From the human T2T-CHM13v2.0 reference genome, Homo sapiens, in the NCBI RefSeq assembly GCF_009914755.1, contig NC_060926.1: a stretch of 64,000 nucleotides of DNA. One strand, written 5' to 3'. The translations under genes were made by a program, and so were the position numbers. A model generated the notes under the pieces. That model saw only the letters and a list, made by a program, of their open reading frames with translations, had not been told where the DNA came from and did not search any database. Of the stretch, positions 2,401 through 12,382 are shown piece after piece (within the stretch, counting starts at the first letter, position 1; the number at the start of each line of letters is the position of its first letter).

Positions 2401-3022
2401 ATGAATTAAAATATGGAAATGGTTTTACTAAAGTTGATAAAAAGCTATAGTTCTAATTCTCTCACCAAGTGTCCATCACTTGGGACCCTCCTGACATCAT
2501 TAGGATCAATAACCAAGGGTTGTTCCTGGACCAATGTCCTTTTTCATTGGTAAATGCCCAAGTCATACCAGTTGCTAAATAAGTAGGACTCATTCCTAAA
2601 TATCCTTTTAAAGGTTTTGTCCAGAAACCAATAGAAAAAAAAACTTAAAAAAAAAACAACAACATCTACTCAGCACTGTTTATTTGCCCAGCACTGTGGC
2701 GTGTTTTTAACCTTATCCTTATTTAATTTTCACAGCAAGACTGTGAAATAAGAATCATTATTTCCATTCTATAAATAAGCAAACTAAGATTCTCAGAGGT
2801 TATGTATCTTGCCTAGTGTTTTCATAATTGTTAAATTCCAGAACAAGAATTCCAAAACAGATCTATGGTCAAATAAATTTGAAAAATAATACAGGTTCTT
2901 TATCCACTTGAAAAAGCATGGATGAAATTGAGCAATGAAAGTTTCTAAAAAGTCCTTCATTAAAGAAAGGTTTAACCCAGTGTATTTGAGATTGGGTCTT
3001 TTTCTTGTTTAATACCTATAAG

Positions 3023-3590
3023 TGTTACAGGACAGGGGTCCCAATCCAGACCCTAAGAGAGGGTTATTGGATTTCTCTCAAGAAAGAATTCAGGGCAAGT
3101 CCTCAAGGCAAAGTGAAAGCATGTTTATTAAGAAAGTAAAGGAATAAAAGAATGTCTGCTCCATAGACAGAGCAGCCCTGAGGGCTGCAGGTTGCCTATT
3201 TTTATGGTTATTTCTTGATGATATGCTCAACAAGGGGTGGATTATTCATGCCTCCCCTTTTTAGACCATATAGGGTAACTTCCTGATGTTGCCATGGCAT
3301 TTGTAAACTGTCATGGCTCTGGTGGGAGTGTAGTAGTGAGGGCGACCAGAGGTCATTCTCATAGACAGTTTAGTTTTGGTGGGTTTTGGCCAGCTCCTTT
3401 CCTGCAACCTGTTTTATCAGCAAGGTCTTTATAACCTGTATTTTGTGCTGACCTCCTATGACTTAGAAAGCCTGTGACTTAGAAAGCCTTAACCATCTAA
3501 CCGTCTGAGAATGCAGCTCAGTAGGTTTCAGCTTCATTTTACCCAGCTCCTATTTAAGATGCAGTTGCTCTGGTTCACACGCCTCTGATA
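3023..3590 (-). mobile_element. MER41A solo LTR (ERV1)
   Basis: tgttacaggacaggggtccc...gcctctgata matches the reverse complement of MER41; lacks the tandem TTCCNGGAA (GAS) block of MER41B; imperfect 4-bp TSD taag/tgag. Confidence 0.85.
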
Positions 3591-3976
3591 TGAGCACTTT
3601 GGCAAACTGATACTTTAATTATATTGGAAGCTGATCCCCACTCTTGACTCATGATAACCAAAATGATGACTCAGAGCTCCACATCATTTCCATGGATGTC
3701 ATTGTTAGGATCCGCTCCTCTTTCCTATCCATGAAAGATATGTTTTGAAACCAAAGCAGGAACTTAAAGTTATCCTTCATATGATACATTTGGTTAAATT
3801 CATGTCATTATCCAGTTTAATAGTATCACAAATTTGCCACCTTATATTGTCACTGTTCTTATTGGTTTAATTCATCTTCAACTGGCTGACCAAATTCTTT
3901 ACATCTTCACCTAGACAATCATAAATGTTAAACACAGAAGAATTGAGGACTACCAGTTTCAGGTCTAATATGTAAA

Positions 3977-4166
3977 TGTCATGCACGTCTGTGTGAAGAG
4001 AGTCCATCAACAGGCTTTGTGTGAGCAACGAGGCTGTTTATTCACTTGGGTGCAAATGGGCTGAGTCCGAGAAAGGAGTCAGCCCACTTGCACCCAAGTG
4101 AATAAACAGCCTTGTTGCTCACACAAAGTCTGTTGGTAGACTCTCTTCACACAGACAGACATGACA
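3977..4166. repeat. 88-bp inverted repeat (hairpin) of LTR R-U5 with 14-nt loop
   Basis: 3977-4064 is the reverse complement of 4079-4166 (80/88 identical by manual alignment). Confidence 0.95.
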
Positions 4167-4168
4167 TT

Positions 4169-4186
4169 TGGTGCCAAAACCCGGGA
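4169..4186 (+). other. tRNA-Phe primer-binding-site copy
   Basis: TGGTGCCAAAACCCGGGA vs complement of tRNA-Phe 3' 18 nt, TGGTGCCGAAACCCGGGA (17/18; the mismatch is at a CpG). Confidence 0.85.
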
Positions 4187-4500
4187 ATAGTCAGGGAAGC
4201 AGAAAATTTAGTTAAAATGTCTCGACCTAATAAGGGAGCTGGGCAGGTGGGGATAACTGAAAAGGAGTGCATAAAAGAATGTTGTCCAAGTTGGCACCAG
4301 AGTTGGGGAGTTTTAAGAGGCTTAGAAGCCTGGTCATCAATACCTACAACAGTTATGGAGGCAAGGGAAACAGGCCCTTGAAAAGAAGGTAATGTGGAGT
4401 GGGTAGCCTCCATATTGATTAAGAAGGAGGTGGACTTACCCTCCACTGTAAGAGTTACCCAAAGCATCTGTGATGGTCCAGGAGGCTTCTGAGGTGATCA
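4187..4500 (-). pseudogene. pro: HERV-H protease remnant
   Basis: ORF 4147..4467: LTVEGK..FLINMEATHSTL...PLLGRDIL; catalytic DTG degenerate. Confidence 0.85.
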
Positions 4501-4505
4501 GGCAG

Positions 4506-5800
4506 CGTCAGTCTTCAGCCGCTAAGCCGAGAAGATCTGGGAAGGAGTCAGTCAGAGAGCCTTGGGCCAGAGTTCCAGGGGCTCTGGGAGTGGCTGCCGG
4601 GTGAGCTGGTTCCAGTGGGTTCCCACACAGATGGGACATGGCTTAGGAGGAATCCCAGGCTGGGCATTCTTTAGCCCAGTGGCCAGATTTCCAGCATTTG
4701 AAGCAAGATCCTGGGGGAGGAGGTCCTGGAGGAATGCCTGGCCACTGTGGTTTAGATGTTTTGAAGTTCTTTTGTGCTGGAGATGTGGCTGGGGTTTCTC
4801 TCTCACACAGCAGAGGCAAGTAATTGTAACTCAGAAATACATTGCTGCTTGGCTGCCTCTTCTCTATTATTGTACACCTTGAAGGAGAGGTTAATTAAGT
4901 CCTATTGTGGGGCTTGAGGCCCGGAATATAATTTTTGGAGTTTTTTCTAACGTTGGGAGCAGATTGGGTAATAAAATGCATATTGAGAATAAGACGGCCT
5001 TCTGGCCCCTCTGGGTCTAGAGCGGTAAAGCATCTAAGGGTTCTTGCCAAACAGGCCATTAACTGGACTAGGTTTTTATATTTGATGAAAAAGAGACTAA
5101 ATGCTAACTGATTTGGGAGAGGCTGGATAAAGAAAAAGGAGCATTAACCTTGACTATGCCTTTAGCTCCAGCCACCTCTCTAAGAGGAAATTGTTGGGCA
5201 GGTTGGGGAGAGCTAGTCACAGAACGAAACTGTAAGCTGGAACAGGTGTGAGGAGGGGAAGTGATAGAAGGATTATAGGGTGAGGGAGCAGAGGCTGAGG
5301 AAGAATTGGGACCTTGCTCGGCCTGGTGAAGAGCAGCCTGGGGAGGCTGGGAGAGGTCAGATGGGTTTGTAGAAAAGGAGGATTCAAAGGACTCAGAGCT
5401 TGGGGTGGAAACTGAAGGAACAGACAGGAGAGAAGGAAGAAAGATTTGGGACAAGTTGCATTGGGAGCAGAGACTAGGGAGGGACCAATGTGTAAAAGAA
5501 TGCCCGGATGTCAAGCACCTCAGACCATTTGCCCATTTTTCGACAAAAATTATCTAGATCTTGTAGGATGGAGAAATCAAAAGTGCCATTTTCTGGTCAT
5601 TTAGAACCATTGTCAAGTTTGTATTGGGGCCAAGCAGTATTGCAGAAGAAAATAAGGCATTTAGGTTTTAGGTCAGGTGTGAGTTGAAGAGGTGTAAGTT
5701 CTTGAGAACACAGGGTAAGGGAGAAGAAGGAGGAATGGAGGGTGGAAGTTTGCCCATAGTTAAAAGGTGAGTTTAGAGAAAAGAGAGGATAGAGACACAG
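4506..5800 (-). pseudogene. gag: HERV-H gag remnant
   Basis: Fragments LIFFCNTAWPQYKLDNGSK, QQFPLREVAGAKGIVKVNAPFSLS, Zn knuckle PCPICVGTHW; frameshifted and deleted. Confidence 0.85.
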
Positions 5801-6186
5801 TGTGGGGGGAGGTGGTCTTGCCACCCAGGGAAGGTGGTACTTGCCACCAAGGTGAAGGATCAAGGCAGGCATCCCCACAGTGATTAAACACCAAGGGAAG
5901 ACTGTCTTCCCAAGTCCATGACTGTTGCCGGAGTTTTGAGTTCATGGATAAAACGTGTCTCCTCTGTCTCTACCAGAAAAGGAAAGGAACCAAAATTAAG
6001 GAAGGGAGAGATTGAAGGGTGGAGGGCTAACAAGACAGGCTGGAGAAGAGAACAAAAAGAGGCCACTTACCTGATTTAAAATTGGTGAGATGTTCCTTTG
6101 GCTGGTCTGAGGACCCAAGGTCATAGGTGATCTCCTCACGGAGTGAGGGTGAGGACCCGGGATGAGTCTCCTGAAGGAGTCCCCTG

Positions 6187-6205
6187 TCCCAGGTCTTTGG
6201 CACCA
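6187..6205 (-). other. Proviral PBS (Phe-like variant TGGTGCCAAAGACCTGGGA)
   Basis: Directly follows the U5 end (..cataaca tt) on the minus strand and precedes the HERV-H leader. Confidence 0.85.
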
Positions 6206-6207
6206 AA

Positions 6208-6612
6208 TGTTATGCATGTCCATGTGAAGAGACCACCAAACAGGCTTTGTGTGAGCAATAAACTTTTTAATCACCTGGGTGCAGGCAAGCTGAATCCAAA
6301 AAAAAGGAGTCAGCAAAGGGAGATAGGGGTGGGACAGTTTTATAGGATTTGGGTAGGTAGTGGAAAATTAGACTTAAAAGGGGTTGTTCTCTTGTGGACA
6401 GGGGCGGGGGTCACAAGGTGCTCAGTGGGGAGCTCCTGAGATTCACTGTCCAGGAGAAGGAATGTGACAAGGCCAATTGATCAGTTCAGGTGGGGCAGTA
6501 ACAAATCACAATGGTGGAATGTCATCAGTTAAGGCAGGAACTGACTATTTTCACTTCTTTTATAGTTCTTCAGTTGCTTCAGGCCACCTGGATGTATATG
6601 TGCAGGTCACAG
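6208..6612 (-). mobile_element. LTR7-family LTR (LTR7C-like), missing first ~35-40 nt of U3
   Basis: Reverse complement of 8184-8588, about 95% identical by eye; TATA box and ATTAAA present. Confidence 0.9.
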
Positions 6613-6638
6613 AGGCTTATTCCAGAAGGAAGGAAAGG

Positions 6639-7985
6639 CAACTTTCTCCTTATGTCAATTCTACCCCCTGCCCCCCAAATATTTGGACCCCTCACCACAC
6701 AAACAACTATCCCTGTTGCTGCTCCTTTATGCATCTCCCAACAATAGCCTACTGGAATCCCTTTAGGCAACCTTCCACCATCCAAATGTTCCTTTACTCT
6801 ATCTCCAGAACCCAGCCACACACATTACCAAACAGATGGGAGTATTCCAACTTTGCATTACTGATGAGCCCTCTATCATTACTGACAAACCAAAAAACAT
6901 TGGCAGTCACTATTGTTTGGAAAGACACTTATCCTCCATCTCCCTCCATCCTTGGCTATCCTCCCCCTGCTCATCTGAATCTCCTCCTATCCCCTCCTCT
7001 TGCTTGCTTATATGCAGCCCCATGAATAGCAGTGAAAGGTTACTCATAGACACTATGTGCTTTCTTATACACCATGGAAACCAAACCTCTCCCTCTATGA
7101 GTTGCACTATCCATCCCCATTACAACCTCTAATGGCTGCTGCCCTTGCTGGAGCTCTAGGATTTTGGGTGCAGGACTCCTCTTTCAGTACACCCTCTCAC
7201 CTTTTCACTTTACATTTCCAGTTCTGCCTGACACAAGGTCTCTTCTTTTATGTGGTTCTTCCACCTACATGCACCTACCTGCCAACTGGATGGGCACATG
7301 TACTCTAGTCTTCCTTACCCCCAAAATCCAGTTTGCAGATAGGAATGAACAACTGCCTGTCCCCCTCATGACACCAACACAACAAAAAGAGTCATCCCAG
7401 TTATCCCTTTACTTGTGGGTCTAGAACTTTTCTGCCTCCACTATTGCACTTGGAACTGGAATAGCAGGCATATCAACTTCTGTCACAACATTCTGCAGCC
7501 TCTATAATGACTTCTCTGCTAGCATTACAGATATATCACAAACTTTATCTGTCCTCCAAGCCCAGGTTGACTCTTTAGCTGCAGTTGTCCTCCAGAACTT
7601 CTGAGGCCTCAATTTACTCACTGCTGAAAAAGGAGGTCTCTGTATGTTTTTAAATGAAGAGTGTTGTTTTTACCTAAAACAATCTGGCCTGGTATATGAC
7701 AACATAAAAAAACTCAAGGATAGAGCCCCAAAACTCGCTAACCAACAAAATAATTATGCTAAACTCCCTTGGGCACTCTCTAATTGGATGTCTTGGGTCC
7801 TCCCAATTCTTAGTCCTTTAATACCTCTTTTTCTCCTTCTCTTATTTGGACCTTGTGTCTTCCGTTTAGTTTCTCAGTTCATACAAAACTGCATTCAGGC
7901 CATCACCAATCATTCTATATGACAAATGCTCCTTCTAACAACCCCACAACACCAACCTTTACCCCAAAATCTTTCTCCAGTTTAA
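6639..7985 (+). pseudogene. env: HERV-H env remnant (C-terminal SU + TM)
   Basis: IFGPLTTQTTIPVAAPLCIS, LPANWMGTCTLVFLTPKIQF, ISU-like LQNF*GLNLLTAEKGGLC, CX6CC (CMFLNEECC), TM LLLLFGPC; stops and frameshifts. Confidence 0.92.
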
Positions 7986-8146
7986 TCTCTCCCACTCTAG
8001 GTTCCCATGCTGCCCCTAATCCCACCTGAAGCAGCCCTGAGAAACATCACCCATTATCTCTCCATACCATCCCCCAAAATTTTCACCACCCCAACACTTC
8101 ACCACTACTTTGTTTTGTTTTTCTTATTAACATAAGAAGACAGGAA

Positions 8147-8588
8147 TTTCAGGCCTCTGAGCCCTAGCTAAGCCATCATATCCCCTGTGACCTGCACATA
8201 TATATCCAGATGGCCTGAAGCAACTGAAGAACCACAAAAGAAGTGAAAATAGCCAGTTCCTGCCTTAACTGATGACATTCCACCATTGTGATTTGTTCCT
8301 GCCCCACCCTAACTGATCAATTGACCTTGTCACATTCCTTCTCCTGGACAGTGAATCTCAGGAGCTCCCCACTGAGCACCTTGTGACCCCTGCCCCTGCC
8401 CACAAGAGAACAACCCCCTTTAAGTCTAATTTTCCACTACCTACCCACATCCCATAAAACTGCCCCACTCCTATCTCCCTTTGCTGACTCCTTTTTTGGA
8501 TTCAGACTGCCTGCACCCAGGTGATTAAAAAGCTTTATTGCTCACACAAAGCCTGTGTGGTGGTCTCTTCACATGGACGCACATAACA
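8147..8588 (+). mobile_element. 3' LTR7-family LTR (LTR7C-like), preceded by PPT
   Basis: PPT aagaagacaggaa 8134-8146; tttcaggcctctgagccc...cataaca. Confidence 0.92.
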
Positions 8589-10305
8589 GTAATCAGATGA
8601 GAAGTCACCACTTCCATTCCTACAATAACAACAACAAGCTAGATAAACAAAAACAATGACTTTTCTTGGACCCATCAAATAACTGAAGTTTCAGGGCAAA
8701 ACACTACCCCAAATTTGGAGAGACAGGTGTATCTAGAGACACAGGTGGGATCTGCTTACGTGGAAAAGAAGCTGCTGGGATCTACTTACCTGGAAAAGAA
8801 GGTGCTGGAGCCATAAATTGTTAGGAGCATTTACATGGTAATGTTGGCAAATTGCTGGAGGCTGTGTGTGGACTCATGTGAGAAAAAAAGCTCAGGGGGG
8901 CCACCGTTCTAAGGGTACCCTCACACATTTGTGAGCTTTACCTCCAAGAACATGGCCAAATTCTCATAGTAAGGATGTGAGAAAGATCCTTCCCTGGATT
9001 TGGCAGGAAAAGAGGATGAAATCCCCTTGGAGAGTTCTCCATAACAAAGGCCTACTTTGCAGGGTGAAAGACTTTCCCAGAGCCTTATTCCAGAAGGAAG
9101 GGAGGAAAGGCATTCCTCTCTCTCCCCTGTCTTCTCTAGCTTTCTAGTCCCCACTAAGGGAAAAATTTAAAAGCTATGCCACTGGAGAAACACTTGTGAA
9201 GCTGACAGTTCAGAAACATGCCCCCAACCCCCACAAAAGATGGAGTTTTAACAAGATTATGGAATGCTTCTACCTCCCAGAACCTTCTCACCTCAGCAAT
9301 AGGGCTCCCGTATGACAGTGGATTACAGTTGAAAAATCTGCAAAACAGAGATTCTGAGAAGTACTTAGGGAAGCCTAAAGTCAAGGTGAGAGACAAAATT
9401 AAGGAAGAATCTGAAGCTTCTGACATCCACACCAATAGCAAACAGTAAACATAGCCCAGCACTTAGCCAGATTAACATAAATCCTCACAATAAAGGCCTA
9501 CTTGCCTATTTGTCTATTTTCCTCTCTGGTTTGAACAAAAAATTACAAAGCAGGCCAAGAAAAAACAAACACACACAGTCTAAGGAAACAAAGCAATCAC
9601 GAGAATCAGGCTCAGCTATGACACAGATGATGATATGATCAGACATGGAATTTACAATATCATAACTATAATTAATACGTTAAGGGCTTTAATAGAAAAA
9701 GTAGACAACATGAAAGAAGAGATGAGTAAAGTAAGCAGCGAGATGGAAACTCTAAGAATCAAAACAGATGATCAAAATAAAAAACAAAGACAGCTGAGAA
9801 AAAAACTATCAGTGAGATTGAAGATCATCAATAGCAAACTGAAATGCAAAGAGAAAAAAAGAATTTTTTAAAAATCACATATCCGCTAAGAACTGTAAAC
9901 AATTTTAAAAGCTATAACATACATGTAATTGGAATATCAGAAGGAAAAAATTAAAGAGAACAGAGAAAAAGAAATAGCTGAAGTAGTAATGGTTAAAAAC
10001 TTTCCAAAATTAATGACAGTCACCACATCACAAATTCAGGAATATCAGAGAATATCAAGCCAAATAAATACCAAAAACAAAACTAACTGCAGAAAACCAG
10101 ACACGAAGAAAATATTATGAAAGAAGCTAGAGGGGGAGAAAACTTTGCCTTAGATGAATGAAAATAACAATTATAATAGACTTCTCATCAGAAACTATAT
10201 AAACAAAAGGACAGTAGCATAAAATATTTAAAGTCTTGAAAGCAAAAAAACCCAACAAGCTTGAATTCTATATCCAGTCAAATTGTCCTTCCAAAGTGAA
10301 GGAGA

Positions 10306-10855
<550 letters not shown>

Positions 10856-12382
10856 AAGGGGAAATAAAGATTTTCTCAGACAAACAAAAACTAAGCTTCA
10901 AAACCAGCAGATCTAGCCTGCAACAAATTTTAAACATGGAAAAATTCTGGGAAGCAACATTAAGAACCTCCTCTGTGAATGCTATCATTTTGTTAAGCAG
11001 CCCTTGTTTAGATACATAAGAACCATCTTCCAATTGGGTATTTATTATTGCATTAAACCCATTCTTCATGATTTCCCCAGAAATATCATGAAAGTGTTCC
11101 CAAAATGCCTGTGGAATATCTGATACACTCATCCAACAGTCACTATTTCCTGCTAAAGAACAAAATGATGTTACTCCATTGTGAAGTGATCTTGGTGATC
11201 TCTTGCTGGATCTCCTTCTAGATTTTTATGAATCACATCTTTAATAATTCATTCTAGGACCTTGCCCAGGGTTAACTTAAAGCTCTCTAGTCCTGAATAG
11301 CAGCATGTATCCTTTTTTCCTCTAAAATGTGAATCTACGTTTACATTTTCCTCTTTTCCATTTTCCCTTTCTCCTTCACATATCACTGTCCTCATTTGCA
11401 CCTTAGGATATTATATTCTGGGGTTAAATTTGCTCACAGGAGGAAACTTGAACTCATTTTTAGCAGTAGGATTATCTCTTATAATATTTTATCTCATTTT
11501 CATCTTCTGTTCCTCCCAATCAATGTTTATTCTACACAGCTTAGTGTTGAAATCAGTCTCTTTAAGAGAAAAGACAAAGCAAAATAGAGATTAAAGAGTT
11601 CTCTCCTATGTCAACCATCAACTTTATGCTCTAAACCACAGCGCCGAGTTTATTCATTTGATGATCTTATTCTTACCGTAATGTAACTAGGGTCTTCTGG
11701 TTATCATTGGCTTTATCAAAAGTTGTAACCCATTTTATACTTTAGTCTTTGTAAATCTTATCTTCAGTTCTTTGCTTCTCCCTTAATCATTGCCTTGTAT
11801 TATTCAACATTAGGAGACCCCATTTCCATTGCTTTAAATCTGAGGTCACCAGAGTGCATTCTCTATACTGCCACCCAGGGTCACATCTCTTTCCTCCCCA
11901 TGTATCTATTACTATATACAAAAACAGATGAATAAAATTTACTTACCAAACTACATCCCTCTTAAAGCACACCATTGGCAGAGGCTGAGTGTTTCTCTAA
12001 TATAAAATGCTTATCAGGGTATTAAAATATGGAAAAATCAGCTTCCTATAGCTTGATAAAAAAATTCAGTAATTGTTATTATTACTCACTTATTTGAGTT
12101 CATTAATAATAAAATTGCATGAAATAATAGCTGTGCAATATATAATACATAATAGTATATAACATAATAATATAATGTTTGTATAAAGGGAAACAACTTT
12201 TTTCCCTCAAAAATCTGTGTTTGTGTCCATATCTACCACTGATTAAACACAGGGGGGTGCCTTTTAACCTCTTTGTGCCTTTGTCTCCTCATCTGTAGAA
12301 CTGGGTTAATAAATGAATGTGTTGTTATTCTTGTAAGGCTAAACAAAATTAAGTACATACACTTGACCTTGGAAGCCTTAAG

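What the first reader, a model, noticed from the sequence alone, without database searches (positions are those of the whole stretch)
3977..4186. Candidate fossil of self-primed minus-strand strong-stop DNA: U5'-R' folds back at the cap site, recopies R-U5, then exactly 18 nt of tRNA-Phe
Seen: 3977-4083 is antisense U5-R. It stops at ...GGAGTCAGC, which corresponds to the G of GCTGAC lying about 30 nt downstream of the TATA box in the intact LTRs, the expected 5' end of R. TCAGC pairs with GCTGA (4060-4064), a natural R hairpin. From there the sequence continues as the sense copy of R-U5 (88-bp stem, 80/88), then 'tt', then TGGTGCCAAAACCCGGGA. Known: the complement of the 3' 18 nt of tRNA-Phe is TGGTGCCGAAACCCGGGA; RT stops at m1A58 after 18 nt; strong-stop self-priming through an R hairpin is a known in vitro dead-end product (HIV-1 TAR) suppressed by nucleocapsid. 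Inference: here that product was rescued and fixed in the germ line.
Basis: partly seen in the sequence, partly recalled or inferred. Interest (0 to 1): 0.9.

Follow-up and report, generated by a model that had tools for sequence, protein, structure and literature searches.

The report
Self-primed strong-stop DNA fossil, integrated
An ancient retrovirus insertion on human chromosome 2 begins with a short DNA palindrome that looks like a failed first step of reverse transcription which was nevertheless extended and pasted into the genome, and a few similar insertions exist elsewhere.

Summary
3974-4068 and 4075-4169 form a 95-nt inverted repeat (91%). It consists of antisense U5-R of a HERV-H-type LTR, a turn at the first base of a natural 9-bp hairpin, a sense copy of R-U5, TT, and a primer-binding site matching tRNA-Phe at 17 of 18 positions.

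The self-priming reading is supported, but the palindrome is not an isolated fossil. It is the left end of one 4,612-bp insertion (3977-8588) flanked by a 5-bp target-site duplication, GTAAA/GTAAT. The inverted U5 end appears to have served integrase as a second attachment site.

After the primer-binding site comes the antisense protease-gag-5'LTR of a different HERV-H variant, joined through a 7-nt microhomology. Next comes a 21-nt filler copied from host DNA 496 nt beyond the insertion, then sense env and the 3'LTR.

Three further loci carry inverted R-U5 ends with 5-bp duplications: chr1 and chr3 (both 5/5) and a 266-bp element on chr5. In two of them the primer-binding site runs on into leader and gag.

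"Exactly 18 nt" is compatible with the data but blurred by the microhomology. Orthologues and mapped transcription starts could not be checked here.

The parts
3972..3976 (.). Left copy of the 5-bp target-site duplication, GTAAA
   Evidence: It matches 8589-8593 (GTAAT) at 4 of 5 positions. Ordinary relatives show 5-bp duplications, also 4/5, in 3 of 4 proviruses checked.
3977..4083 (-). Antisense U5-R. [quoted passage not shown]
   Evidence: Homology in 28 relatives ends at 4081-4083 in 27 and at 4075 in 1. The arms are inverted repeats.
4060..4083 (+). 3'-terminal hairpin of that strand: stems 4060-4068 and 4075-4083 (8 of 9 pairs), loop 4069-4074. The loop is in antisense orientation.
   Evidence: The DNA fold places the last base in the stem; z = -3.4 against shuffles. 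The matching RNA hairpin from nt 1 of R is predicted in 26 of 28 relatives.
4084..4168 (+). Sense copy of R (from about nt 25) through U5, plus the TT spacer
   Evidence: 75 of 83 positions identical to the reverse complement of 3977-4059. Sense homology to relatives starts at 4075-4089.
4169..4186 (+). 18-nt primer-binding site, complement of the tRNA-Phe 3' end (17 of 18). The last 7 nt (4180-4186) are shared with the next segment.
   Evidence: tRNA-Phe gene found by pattern and ARAGORN. (microhomology).
4187..6186 (-). Antisense internal part of a second HERV-H variant ('P'): leader, gag with zinc knuckle, and protease, about 2.07 kb from its primer-binding site
   Evidence: Collinear at 87-88% with five relatives. 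Pfam RVP at 4147-4497(-) and zf-CCHC at 4643-4894(-).
6187..6207 (-). P's own primer-binding site (6187-6205) and AA spacer (6206-6207), antisense
6208..6615 (-). P's 5' LTR, antisense, lacking about 30 nt at the start of U3
   Evidence: 383 of 409 positions (94%) identical to 8182-8588 on the opposite strand. Mapped against relatives.
6616..6636 (+). 21-nt filler. 6616-6633 is an exact 18-nt copy of host 9084-9101.
   Evidence: 25 of 27, E = 6e-5. (longest exact run 18 nt; the 18-mer occurs twice in the window). No homology in 5 of 5 env-bearing relatives.
6637..8146 (+). Sense env fragment of P (with stop codons) up to the polypurine region
   Evidence: 90-92% identical to env-bearing copies from 6637/6638 onward. 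Pfam TLV_coat at 7605-7922(+).
8147..8588 (+). P's 3' LTR, sense, ending ...AACA
8589..8593 (.). Right copy of the target-site duplication, GTAAT
9075..9112 (+). Host source of the filler, inside an old interspersed repeat (about 8585-10945)
   Evidence: The motif is native to that repeat family, as seen in L046-L048.

Best explanation
Window 3977-8588 is one integrase-made insertion of an aberrant HERV-H reverse-transcription product. Its left end is a self-primed minus-strand strong-stop DNA.

Proposed steps:
1. A tRNA-Phe-primed strong-stop DNA was made on one HERV-H RNA ('X'). Its 3' end, the complement of the first 24 nt of R, folded into the natural 9-bp hairpin. This happened in cis, or on a second strong-stop DNA in trans.
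2. Reverse transcriptase extended that end. It recopied R-U5-TT and then 18 nt of the still-attached tRNA.
3. This strand has the same 3' end as a plus-strand strong-stop DNA. At the chr1 and chr3 sister loci it made the normal second jump and ran on into leader and gag. In the window, its last 7 nt (CCCGGGA) paired instead with TCCCGGG at the end of protease on a plus-sense template of another variant ('P'). It was then extended back through gag and the primer-binding site into P's 5' LTR.
4. Once copied, the outer arm ends ...CATGACA-TT, exactly like a normal U5 end. Integrase joined it and the U5 end of P's 3' LTR to target DNA 5 bp apart.
5. The inner junction, between the truncated U3 and env, was closed by host end joining. 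That repair copied 21 nt from host DNA 496 nt away.

Shown by the data: the anatomy, the duplications, the sister loci and the origin of the filler. Inferred: the enzymes, the order of steps, and whether one or two DNA molecules were integrated.
For: - Palindrome anatomy and pivot.
- The 3'-terminal hairpin has its last base paired.
- The pivot is 30 nt after the TATA box. A paper states that the mapped HERV-H start 'corresponds to GC/G' after the TATA box, and that a stem-loop follows the start site (PMC2664473, passages read).
- The loop lies in antisense orientation and is contiguous with the outer arm. This is as expected if the outer arm is the original minus strand.
- The primer-binding site is present on one arm only. 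The other arm abuts unique host DNA.
- The primer-binding site matches tRNA-Phe at 17 of 18 positions, with A at the 19th base.
- Termini are TG...CA with GTAAA/GTAAT flanks. The chance of at least 4 of 5 matches is about 0.016. The family makes 5-bp duplications.
- Sister loci were found with the palindrome centre as query. Only the window, chr1 and chr3 gave full-length matches, and the searches were reciprocal.
- The chr1 element has the form [U5'R'][R-U5-PBS-1.9 kb-3'LTR], flanked by GTGAT/GTGAT. The chr3 element is flanked by TTCTC/TTCTC.
- The chr5 element is 266 bp, of the form [U5'R'U3'(57)][R-U5]. It sits inside an Alu whose two halves rejoin without a gap once one 5-nt copy is removed.
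- Arm divergence in the window (9 of 95) does not differ from P's LTR-LTR divergence (26 of 409; Fisher p = 0.27). This fits one event.
- The arms are 82-84% identical to P's LTRs, whereas those LTRs are 94% identical to each other. Two parental variants were therefore involved.
Against: - The 21-nt filler is an 18/18 copy of host DNA next to the insertion. That junction cannot have been made inside a virus particle, so a host-repair step has to be added.
- P's 5' LTR lacks about 30 nt of U3 at that junction.
- The window's duplication matches at 4 of 5 positions, not 5 of 5.
- LTR ends are inverted repeats, so the first 5 nt (TGTCA) at 3977 could equally be the start of a normal U3.
- Because of the 7-nt microhomology, a strand that ran past nt 18 and was then trimmed would leave the same sequence.
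- At chr1 the loop has the sense orientation and is contiguous with the inner arm. Simple cis self-priming does not predict this.
- The transcription start was not mapped here. The primary paper (Feuchter and Mager 1990) is not held.
- No orthologue or empty site could be examined.
- Only 40 of 1,326-1,762 first-look candidates were scored per search, so the count of sister loci is a lower bound and unsystematic.
Confidence: 0.6

Rival explanations
1. This was a later chromosomal rearrangement. A normal provirus P integrated in the + orientation with the duplication GTAA(A/T). Breaks near the start of U3, at the end of protease and in env then inverted the 5' 2.5 kb and deleted pol. Alternative end joining closed the gaps. 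One gap was filled with 21 nt copied from nearby host DNA. The other was filled with a free self-primed strong-stop cDNA from another active HERV-H. The palindrome would still be a strong-stop fossil, but captured at a break rather than integrated.
For: - All three inner junctions show microhomology or templated filler, as in polymerase-theta-type repair. They are TGTCA at 3977-3981, TCCCGGG at 4180-4186, and 7 of 9 plus GGCA around 6607-6640.
- The filler is certainly chromosomal in origin.
- U3 is truncated.
- The arms come from a different LTR variant than P.
- Capture of retrotransposon cDNA at breaks is known in yeast (recalled, not read here).
Against: - The break in U3 would have to fall within its first 5 nt, and the captured hairpin would have to be joined so as to mimic an intact inverted U5 end.
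- The same inverted-U5-plus-duplication end occurs at chr1, chr3 and chr5. Those elements have no second LTR of their own at that end, so integrase use of such ends is independently shown.
- Arm divergence is as old as P's LTR divergence.
Confidence: 0.22
2. This is a purely DNA-level palindrome. A genomic HERV-H 5' LTR suffered a break or a replication-fork switch at its natural short inverted repeat. Fold-back synthesis then duplicated R-U5 in inverted orientation, without any reverse-transcription intermediate.
For: - The pivot sits on a natural 9-bp inverted repeat present in 26 of 28 relatives.
- Short inverted repeats are known to seed palindromes (recalled).
- Flap trimming would place the pivot at the end of the stem whatever the true start of R.
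Against: - The outer arm stops at the U5 terminus and is flanked by a 5-bp duplication, at this locus and at three others.
- The primer-binding site is on one arm only, so the copy was not made from chromosomal flank.
- No U3 of the same variant is present.
- The same nucleotide-level pivot recurs at three independent loci.
Confidence: 0.05
3. This is an assembly or sequencing fold-back artefact in the T2T assembly.
For: Fold-back chimeras occur in some library types (general knowledge).
Against: - The two arms differ at 9 of 95 positions. An artefactual fold-back would be a perfect complement.
- Arms of 95 nt are far below long-read length.
- Three other loci have the same architecture with diverged arms.
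Confidence: 0.01

Closest known systems
TAR-dependent self-priming of HIV-1 minus-strand strong-stop DNA in vitro (Guo et al. 1997; Driscoll and Hughes 2000), as summarised in the review PMC6088434 (passages read)
   Same: The 3' end of the strong-stop DNA is the complement of a hairpin at the very start of R. It folds back and is extended by reverse transcriptase along its own strand. The anatomy here is what that reaction predicts.
   Different: The review calls these dead-end products. It says they are not detected in endogenous reactions with HIV-1 particles. Here the product carries the 18-nt tRNA copy, was extended further, and sits in germ-line DNA with a target-site duplication. The virus is a gamma-like endogenous family with a 9-bp hairpin rather than TAR.
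Defective HIV-1 proviruses with internal inversions or asymmetric LTRs (Joseph et al. 2022, PMC9278108, passages read)
   Same: These are integrated proviruses whose LTRs or interiors were rearranged by strand-transfer errors during reverse transcription. Two of the proviruses summarised in that paper contained inversions.
   Different: That paper reports deletions, mostly in the 3' LTR, and gives no case of an inverted R-U5 replacing U3 or of an inverted U5 acting as the attachment site.
Plus-strand strong-stop DNA and the second strand transfer of normal reverse transcription (textbook knowledge)
   Same: The strand ends in an 18-nt copy of the tRNA, stopped at the modified A58. It uses that copy to find its next template.
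   Different: The strand is primed by fold-back of the minus strand rather than from the polypurine tract. It therefore carries U5'R' instead of U3 at its 5' end.
Capture of retrotransposon cDNA at chromosome breaks, and templated insertions in polymerase-theta end joining (recalled; no paper read here)
   Same: The 21-nt filler copied from DNA 496 nt away, and the microhomologies at the junctions.
   Different: Such events do not make 5-bp duplications next to TG...CA termini.

Membership tests
Self-primed minus-strand strong-stop DNA | The minus-sense part starts next to the primer-binding site (U5 terminus plus a 2-nt spacer) | tested here: inconclusive
   The arm starts at the U5 terminus, 3977. 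The AA expected before it is present (3975-3976) but overlaps the target-site duplication GTAAA. It therefore cannot be assigned.
Self-primed minus-strand strong-stop DNA | The minus-sense part ends at the complement of the first base of R (the cap site) | tested here: met
   Homology ends at 4081-4083 in 27 of 28 relatives. That G lies 30 nt after the TATA box. The literature statement 'GC/G' for the HERV-H start is in PMC2664473. The start site itself was not mapped here.
Self-primed minus-strand strong-stop DNA | A 3'-terminal hairpin whose last base is paired, followed directly by a sense copy of the same strand | tested here: met
   DNA fold. The copy starts at 4084, with 75 of 83 positions identical to the arm.
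Self-primed minus-strand strong-stop DNA | The copy runs into the tRNA primer and stops after 18 nt | tested here: inconclusive
   17 of 18 positions match tRNA-Phe, and the homology ends at nt 18. The last 7 nt are also homologous to the next segment.
Self-primed minus-strand strong-stop DNA | Made by reverse transcriptase and suppressed by nucleocapsid | not testable with these tools
   Needs biochemistry.
Integrase-mediated retroviral insertion | TG...CA termini flanked by a duplication of the length typical of the family | tested here: met
   TG at 3977 and CA at 8587-8588, with GTAAA/GTAAT flanks. A 5-bp duplication at 4/5 is seen in 3 of 4 ordinary relatives; the fourth shows no match.
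Integrase-mediated retroviral insertion | Two LTRs in direct orientation, with U3 at the left end | tested here: not met
   The left end is an inverted U5. The two full LTRs are inverted relative to each other.
   1,550 first-look candidates for the R-U5 query. Collinear matches to five proviruses. Pfam RVP, zf-CCHC and TLV_coat. The family name itself was not tested.

The most novel reading that the evidence does not exclude
Self-primed (snap-back) strong-stop DNAs of HERV-H were not dead ends. They worked as substitute plus-strand primers. Because their outer arm ends like U5, they also gave integrase a second U5 attachment site. The result is a small, so far undescribed class of U3-less proviruses with palindromic ends, down to a 266-bp element made of little more than a snapped-back strong-stop DNA. 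At this locus, two incomplete viral DNAs from two different parental RNAs may have been integrated together by their outward-facing U5 ends. The host would then have stitched the inner ends together, copying 21 nt of nearby chromosome.
Probability: 0.5. Interest if true: 0.75.

Novelty: new variant of a known kind. Interest (0 to 1): 0.66.

Why it matters
Self-priming of strong-stop DNA is a classic test-tube side reaction. It is used to explain why retroviruses need nucleocapsid chaperoning. The review read here says it is not seen in endogenous reactions with HIV-1 particles (PMC6088434).

Germ-line copies with target-site duplications would be natural evidence for three things:
- The reaction happened in vivo in a primate retrovirus.
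- Its product could complete later steps of DNA synthesis.
- Integrase accepts an inverted U5 as the partner end.

The palindromes also give a sequence-only read-out of the first base of R for this family. They add a mechanism for U3-less or inverted proviral ends that repeat annotation would record only as scattered LTR7 fragments. Finally, the host-templated filler shows viral and host repair steps acting on a single insertion.

My searches of the held library found no paper describing this for endogenous retroviruses. Older subscription papers are not covered by that library.

Tried and rejected
- An empty-site test from paralogues of the old repeat to the right of the insertion. The relatives L046-L048 share no homology beyond the point matching about 8585-8609, and the left flank is unique. 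No test was possible.
- The idea that 3957-3966 (TTTCAGGTCT, 9 of 10 to the first 10 nt of the 3' LTR) is a stump of U3. The 5 nt before it (ACCAG) do not match GTAAT, so I treat it as chance.
- The idea that 6616-6636 belongs to env. None of the 5 env-bearing relatives has it.
- Telling hairpin orientation from the central mismatch alone. Many natural LTRs read GGAGTCAGC in sense, so only the loop composition was used.
- A pattern scan with GGAGTCAGCCNNNNTGCACC gave 10 hits. They were the window, chr1, one unrelated-looking hit not examined, and 7 others that I fetched. None of those 7 is palindromic.
- The primary papers on the HERV-H start site and on self-priming are not held: PMC189804, PMC330443, PMC191753 and a 1985 J Virol DOI.
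- A 1985 report of fold-back retroviral DNA forms is only recalled and was not seen.
- A search for papers on integration with two U5 ends found nothing. That intasomes assemble on two U5 ends in vitro is recalled knowledge.

Full report
**1. The observation.**
- The inverted repeat is real. Its arms are 3974-4068 and 4075-4169: 95 nt, 91% complementary, with a 6-nt gap. Self-BLAST gives E = 4.5e-32.
- Exact coordinates were checked by script. They are antisense U5-R at 3977-4083, stem 4060-4068, loop 4069-4074 (GAGAAA), stem 4075-4083, sense copy 4084-4166, TT at 4167-4168, and TGGTGCCAAAACCCGGGA at 4169-4186.
- Folded as single-stranded DNA, 3977-4083 ends in a hairpin whose last base is paired. 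The z-score is -3.4, and none of 200 shuffles folds as well.

**2. Where the turn lies.**
- The whole human assembly could be searched. The R-U5-PBS query found 1,550 first-look candidates, of which 40 were scored.
- In 28 related loci, homology to the antisense arm runs through the loop. It ends at 4083 in 23 loci, at 4081-4082 in 4 and at 4075 in 1. It never goes further.
- Sense homology begins at 4075-4089 and never crosses the loop. The loop therefore belongs to the antisense (outer) arm, and the break is after the complement of the G of GCTGAC.
- Upstream of that G all 28 relatives carry a TATA-type box. In 21 of them, and in the window's own 3' LTR, its first base lies 30 nt before the G. 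In the other 7, a variant group reading TATAAGA, it lies 32 nt before. In 26 of 28, the first 26 nt fold into a hairpin of at least 6 bp.
- A 2009 paper states that the mapped HERV-H start 'corresponds to GC/G' after the TATA box. It also states that a stem-loop just after the start site is a conserved feature (PMC2664473, passages read). The primary mapping paper is not held.

**3. The primer-binding site.**
- A pattern search found six genomic sites. ARAGORN called the one I fetched tRNA-Phe (GAA).
- The complement of its last 15 nt plus CCA matches 4169-4186 at 17 of 18 positions. The one difference is a G-to-A change at a CpG. The 19th base from the tRNA 3' end is A.
- That reverse transcriptase stops at methylated A58 is textbook knowledge, not tested here.

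**4. What follows the primer-binding site.**
- All 5 relatives continue with (C/T)AGG(A/G)GGACTCC, the leader. The window continues with ATAGTCAGG.
- From 4180/4184 to 6620 the window is the antisense of a HERV-H 5' LTR, primer-binding site, leader, gag and protease. It is collinear with five proviruses at 81-88% identity. Pfam finds RVP and zf-CCHC on the minus strand.
- At the junction all 5 relatives read GACTATTCC followed by TGG, TGG, TAG, TGG or CAG. This is the signature of a decayed CG, so the ancestral site was probably TCCCGGG. That is a 7-nt match to the last 7 nt of the primer-binding site.

**5. The rest of the insertion.**
- The antisense LTR (6208-6615) and the sense LTR (8182-8588) are 94% identical, 383 of 409 positions.
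- The palindrome arms are only 82-84% identical to those LTRs. They also carry a different poly(A)-signal variant. Two parental variants, X and P, were therefore involved.
- Homology to env begins at 6637/6638 in all 39 non-self hits, and in all 5 relatives inspected. Pfam TLV_coat lies at 7605-7922.
- Between the LTR and env lie 21 nt, 6616-6636. Their first 18 nt are an exact copy of 9084-9101, which is 496 nt beyond the insertion and inside an old repeat where the motif is native.

**6. The borders.**
- The left flank is unique DNA.
- The element starts TG at 3977 and ends CA at 8588. Its flanks are GTAAA and GTAAT.
- Ordinary relatives have 5-bp duplications, also 4 of 5 today, in 3 of the 4 proviruses checked. 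The fourth shows no match.

**7. Sister loci.**
- Searching with the palindrome centre gave full-length matches at only three places: the window, chr3:90.15 Mb and chr1:53.3 Mb. Each search scored 40 of 1,326-1,762 candidates, and the three loci found each other.
- chr1 53315036-53317415 has the form [U5'R'][R-U5-PBS-leader-about 1.9 kb-3'LTR]. Its flanks are GTGAT/GTGAT.
- chr3 90147763-90149650, read on the minus strand, has the form [U5'R'][R-U5-PBS(His type)-leader-gag 1.26 kb][inverted LTR]. Its flanks are TTCTC/TTCTC.
- A fourth locus, chr5 155041440-155041705, is a 266-bp element of the form [U5'-R'-57 nt of U3'][R from about nt 4-U5]. It lies inside an Alu. Joining the Alu's flanks, less one 5-nt copy, aligns without a gap to another Alu.
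- Arm identities are 75/83, 73/83, 75/83 and 94/103. All four events are therefore old.
- A further pattern scan added no new palindromes: none of the 7 new hits examined is palindromic.

**8. Interpretation.**
- The inverted U5 ends next to duplications show that integrase used them. An outer arm copied to its end reads ...CA-TT, like a normal U5 end.
- At chr1 and chr3 the tRNA copy led on into leader and gag. The snap-back strand therefore acted as a substitute plus-strand strong-stop DNA.
- In the window, its 3' end paired with a 7-nt site on a plus-sense template and ran backwards into P's 5' LTR.
- If that junction was made by priming, the 3' end stood exactly at nt 18. If it was made by end joining of longer molecules, this cannot be said.
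- The host-templated filler and the missing 30 nt of U3 require a chromosomal repair step. One economical inference is as follows. Two incomplete viral DNAs, each with one outward-facing U5 end, were integrated together. Their inner ends were then joined by the host. The chr3 junction, where a U5 terminus is joined to gag, fits the same scheme.

**9. What does not fit.**
- At chr1 the loop is in sense orientation and is contiguous with the inner arm. Cis self-priming of a complete strong-stop DNA predicts the opposite orientation.
- Priming in trans by a strand paused inside the hairpin would explain this, but it is untested.
- The main rival is a later inversion of a normal provirus with capture of a strong-stop cDNA. 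It explains the filler and the microhomologies well. It still needs a break within the first 5 nt of U3, and it does not account for the sister loci.
- Under both readings the palindrome itself is a strong-stop snap-back product.

**10. Literature.**
- A review states that self-primed products are dead ends for strand transfer. It also states that they are not detected in endogenous reactions with HIV-1 particles (PMC6088434, passages read).
- Rearranged HIV-1 proviruses with inversions and asymmetric LTRs are described, and are attributed to strand-transfer errors (PMC9278108, passages read).
- Four searches combining strong-stop, self-priming, inverted repeat or inverted duplication with provirus, endogenous retrovirus or HERV-H terms returned no paper describing such fossils. 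For most listed papers I saw only titles and abstract openings. Older subscription papers are outside the library.

Noticed in passing
L056 1441-1706 (chr5:155041440-155041705): A 266-bp mini-element inside an Alu. It consists of antisense U5-R plus 57 nt of U3, then a switch (3-4 nt microhomology) to sense R from about nt 4 through U5. There is no primer-binding site. The flanks are CCCAT/TTCAT. It looks like a minus strand that snapped back just after the first jump and was integrated on its own.
   Followed up: partly
L055 1619-1642 (chr1): The central hairpin of the chr1 palindrome is in sense orientation, opposite to the window and chr3. This is unexplained by simple cis self-priming.
   Followed up: partly
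window 3957-3966: TTTCAGGTCT matches the first 10 nt of the 3' LTR (8147-8156) at 9 of 10 positions, just left of the insertion. The 5 nt before it do not match the duplication, so it is probably chance.
   Followed up: partly
window 3000-3598: A different LTR-like repeat lies upstream. Its last 39 nt (3560-3598) recur on chr2 and chr7. The family was not identified.
   Followed up: no
window 8746-8808: A roughly 30-nt tandem duplication (91%) inside the old repeat that RefSeq marks as an enhancer.
   Followed up: no
window 4147-4497 (-): The open frame holding the protease domain runs on across the junction into the primer-binding site and U5 (116 aa). This is presumably chance.
   Followed up: no
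L079 (chr15:35046533-35046852): A HERV-H 5' LTR whose sequence between the TATA box and the first base of R is replaced or deleted, while R-U5 and a His-type primer-binding site are intact.
   Followed up: no
L034 (chr14:47336500-47346499): Three LTR starts lie within 10 kb (positions 232, 6610 and 7385), suggesting a tandem or nested arrangement.
   Followed up: no
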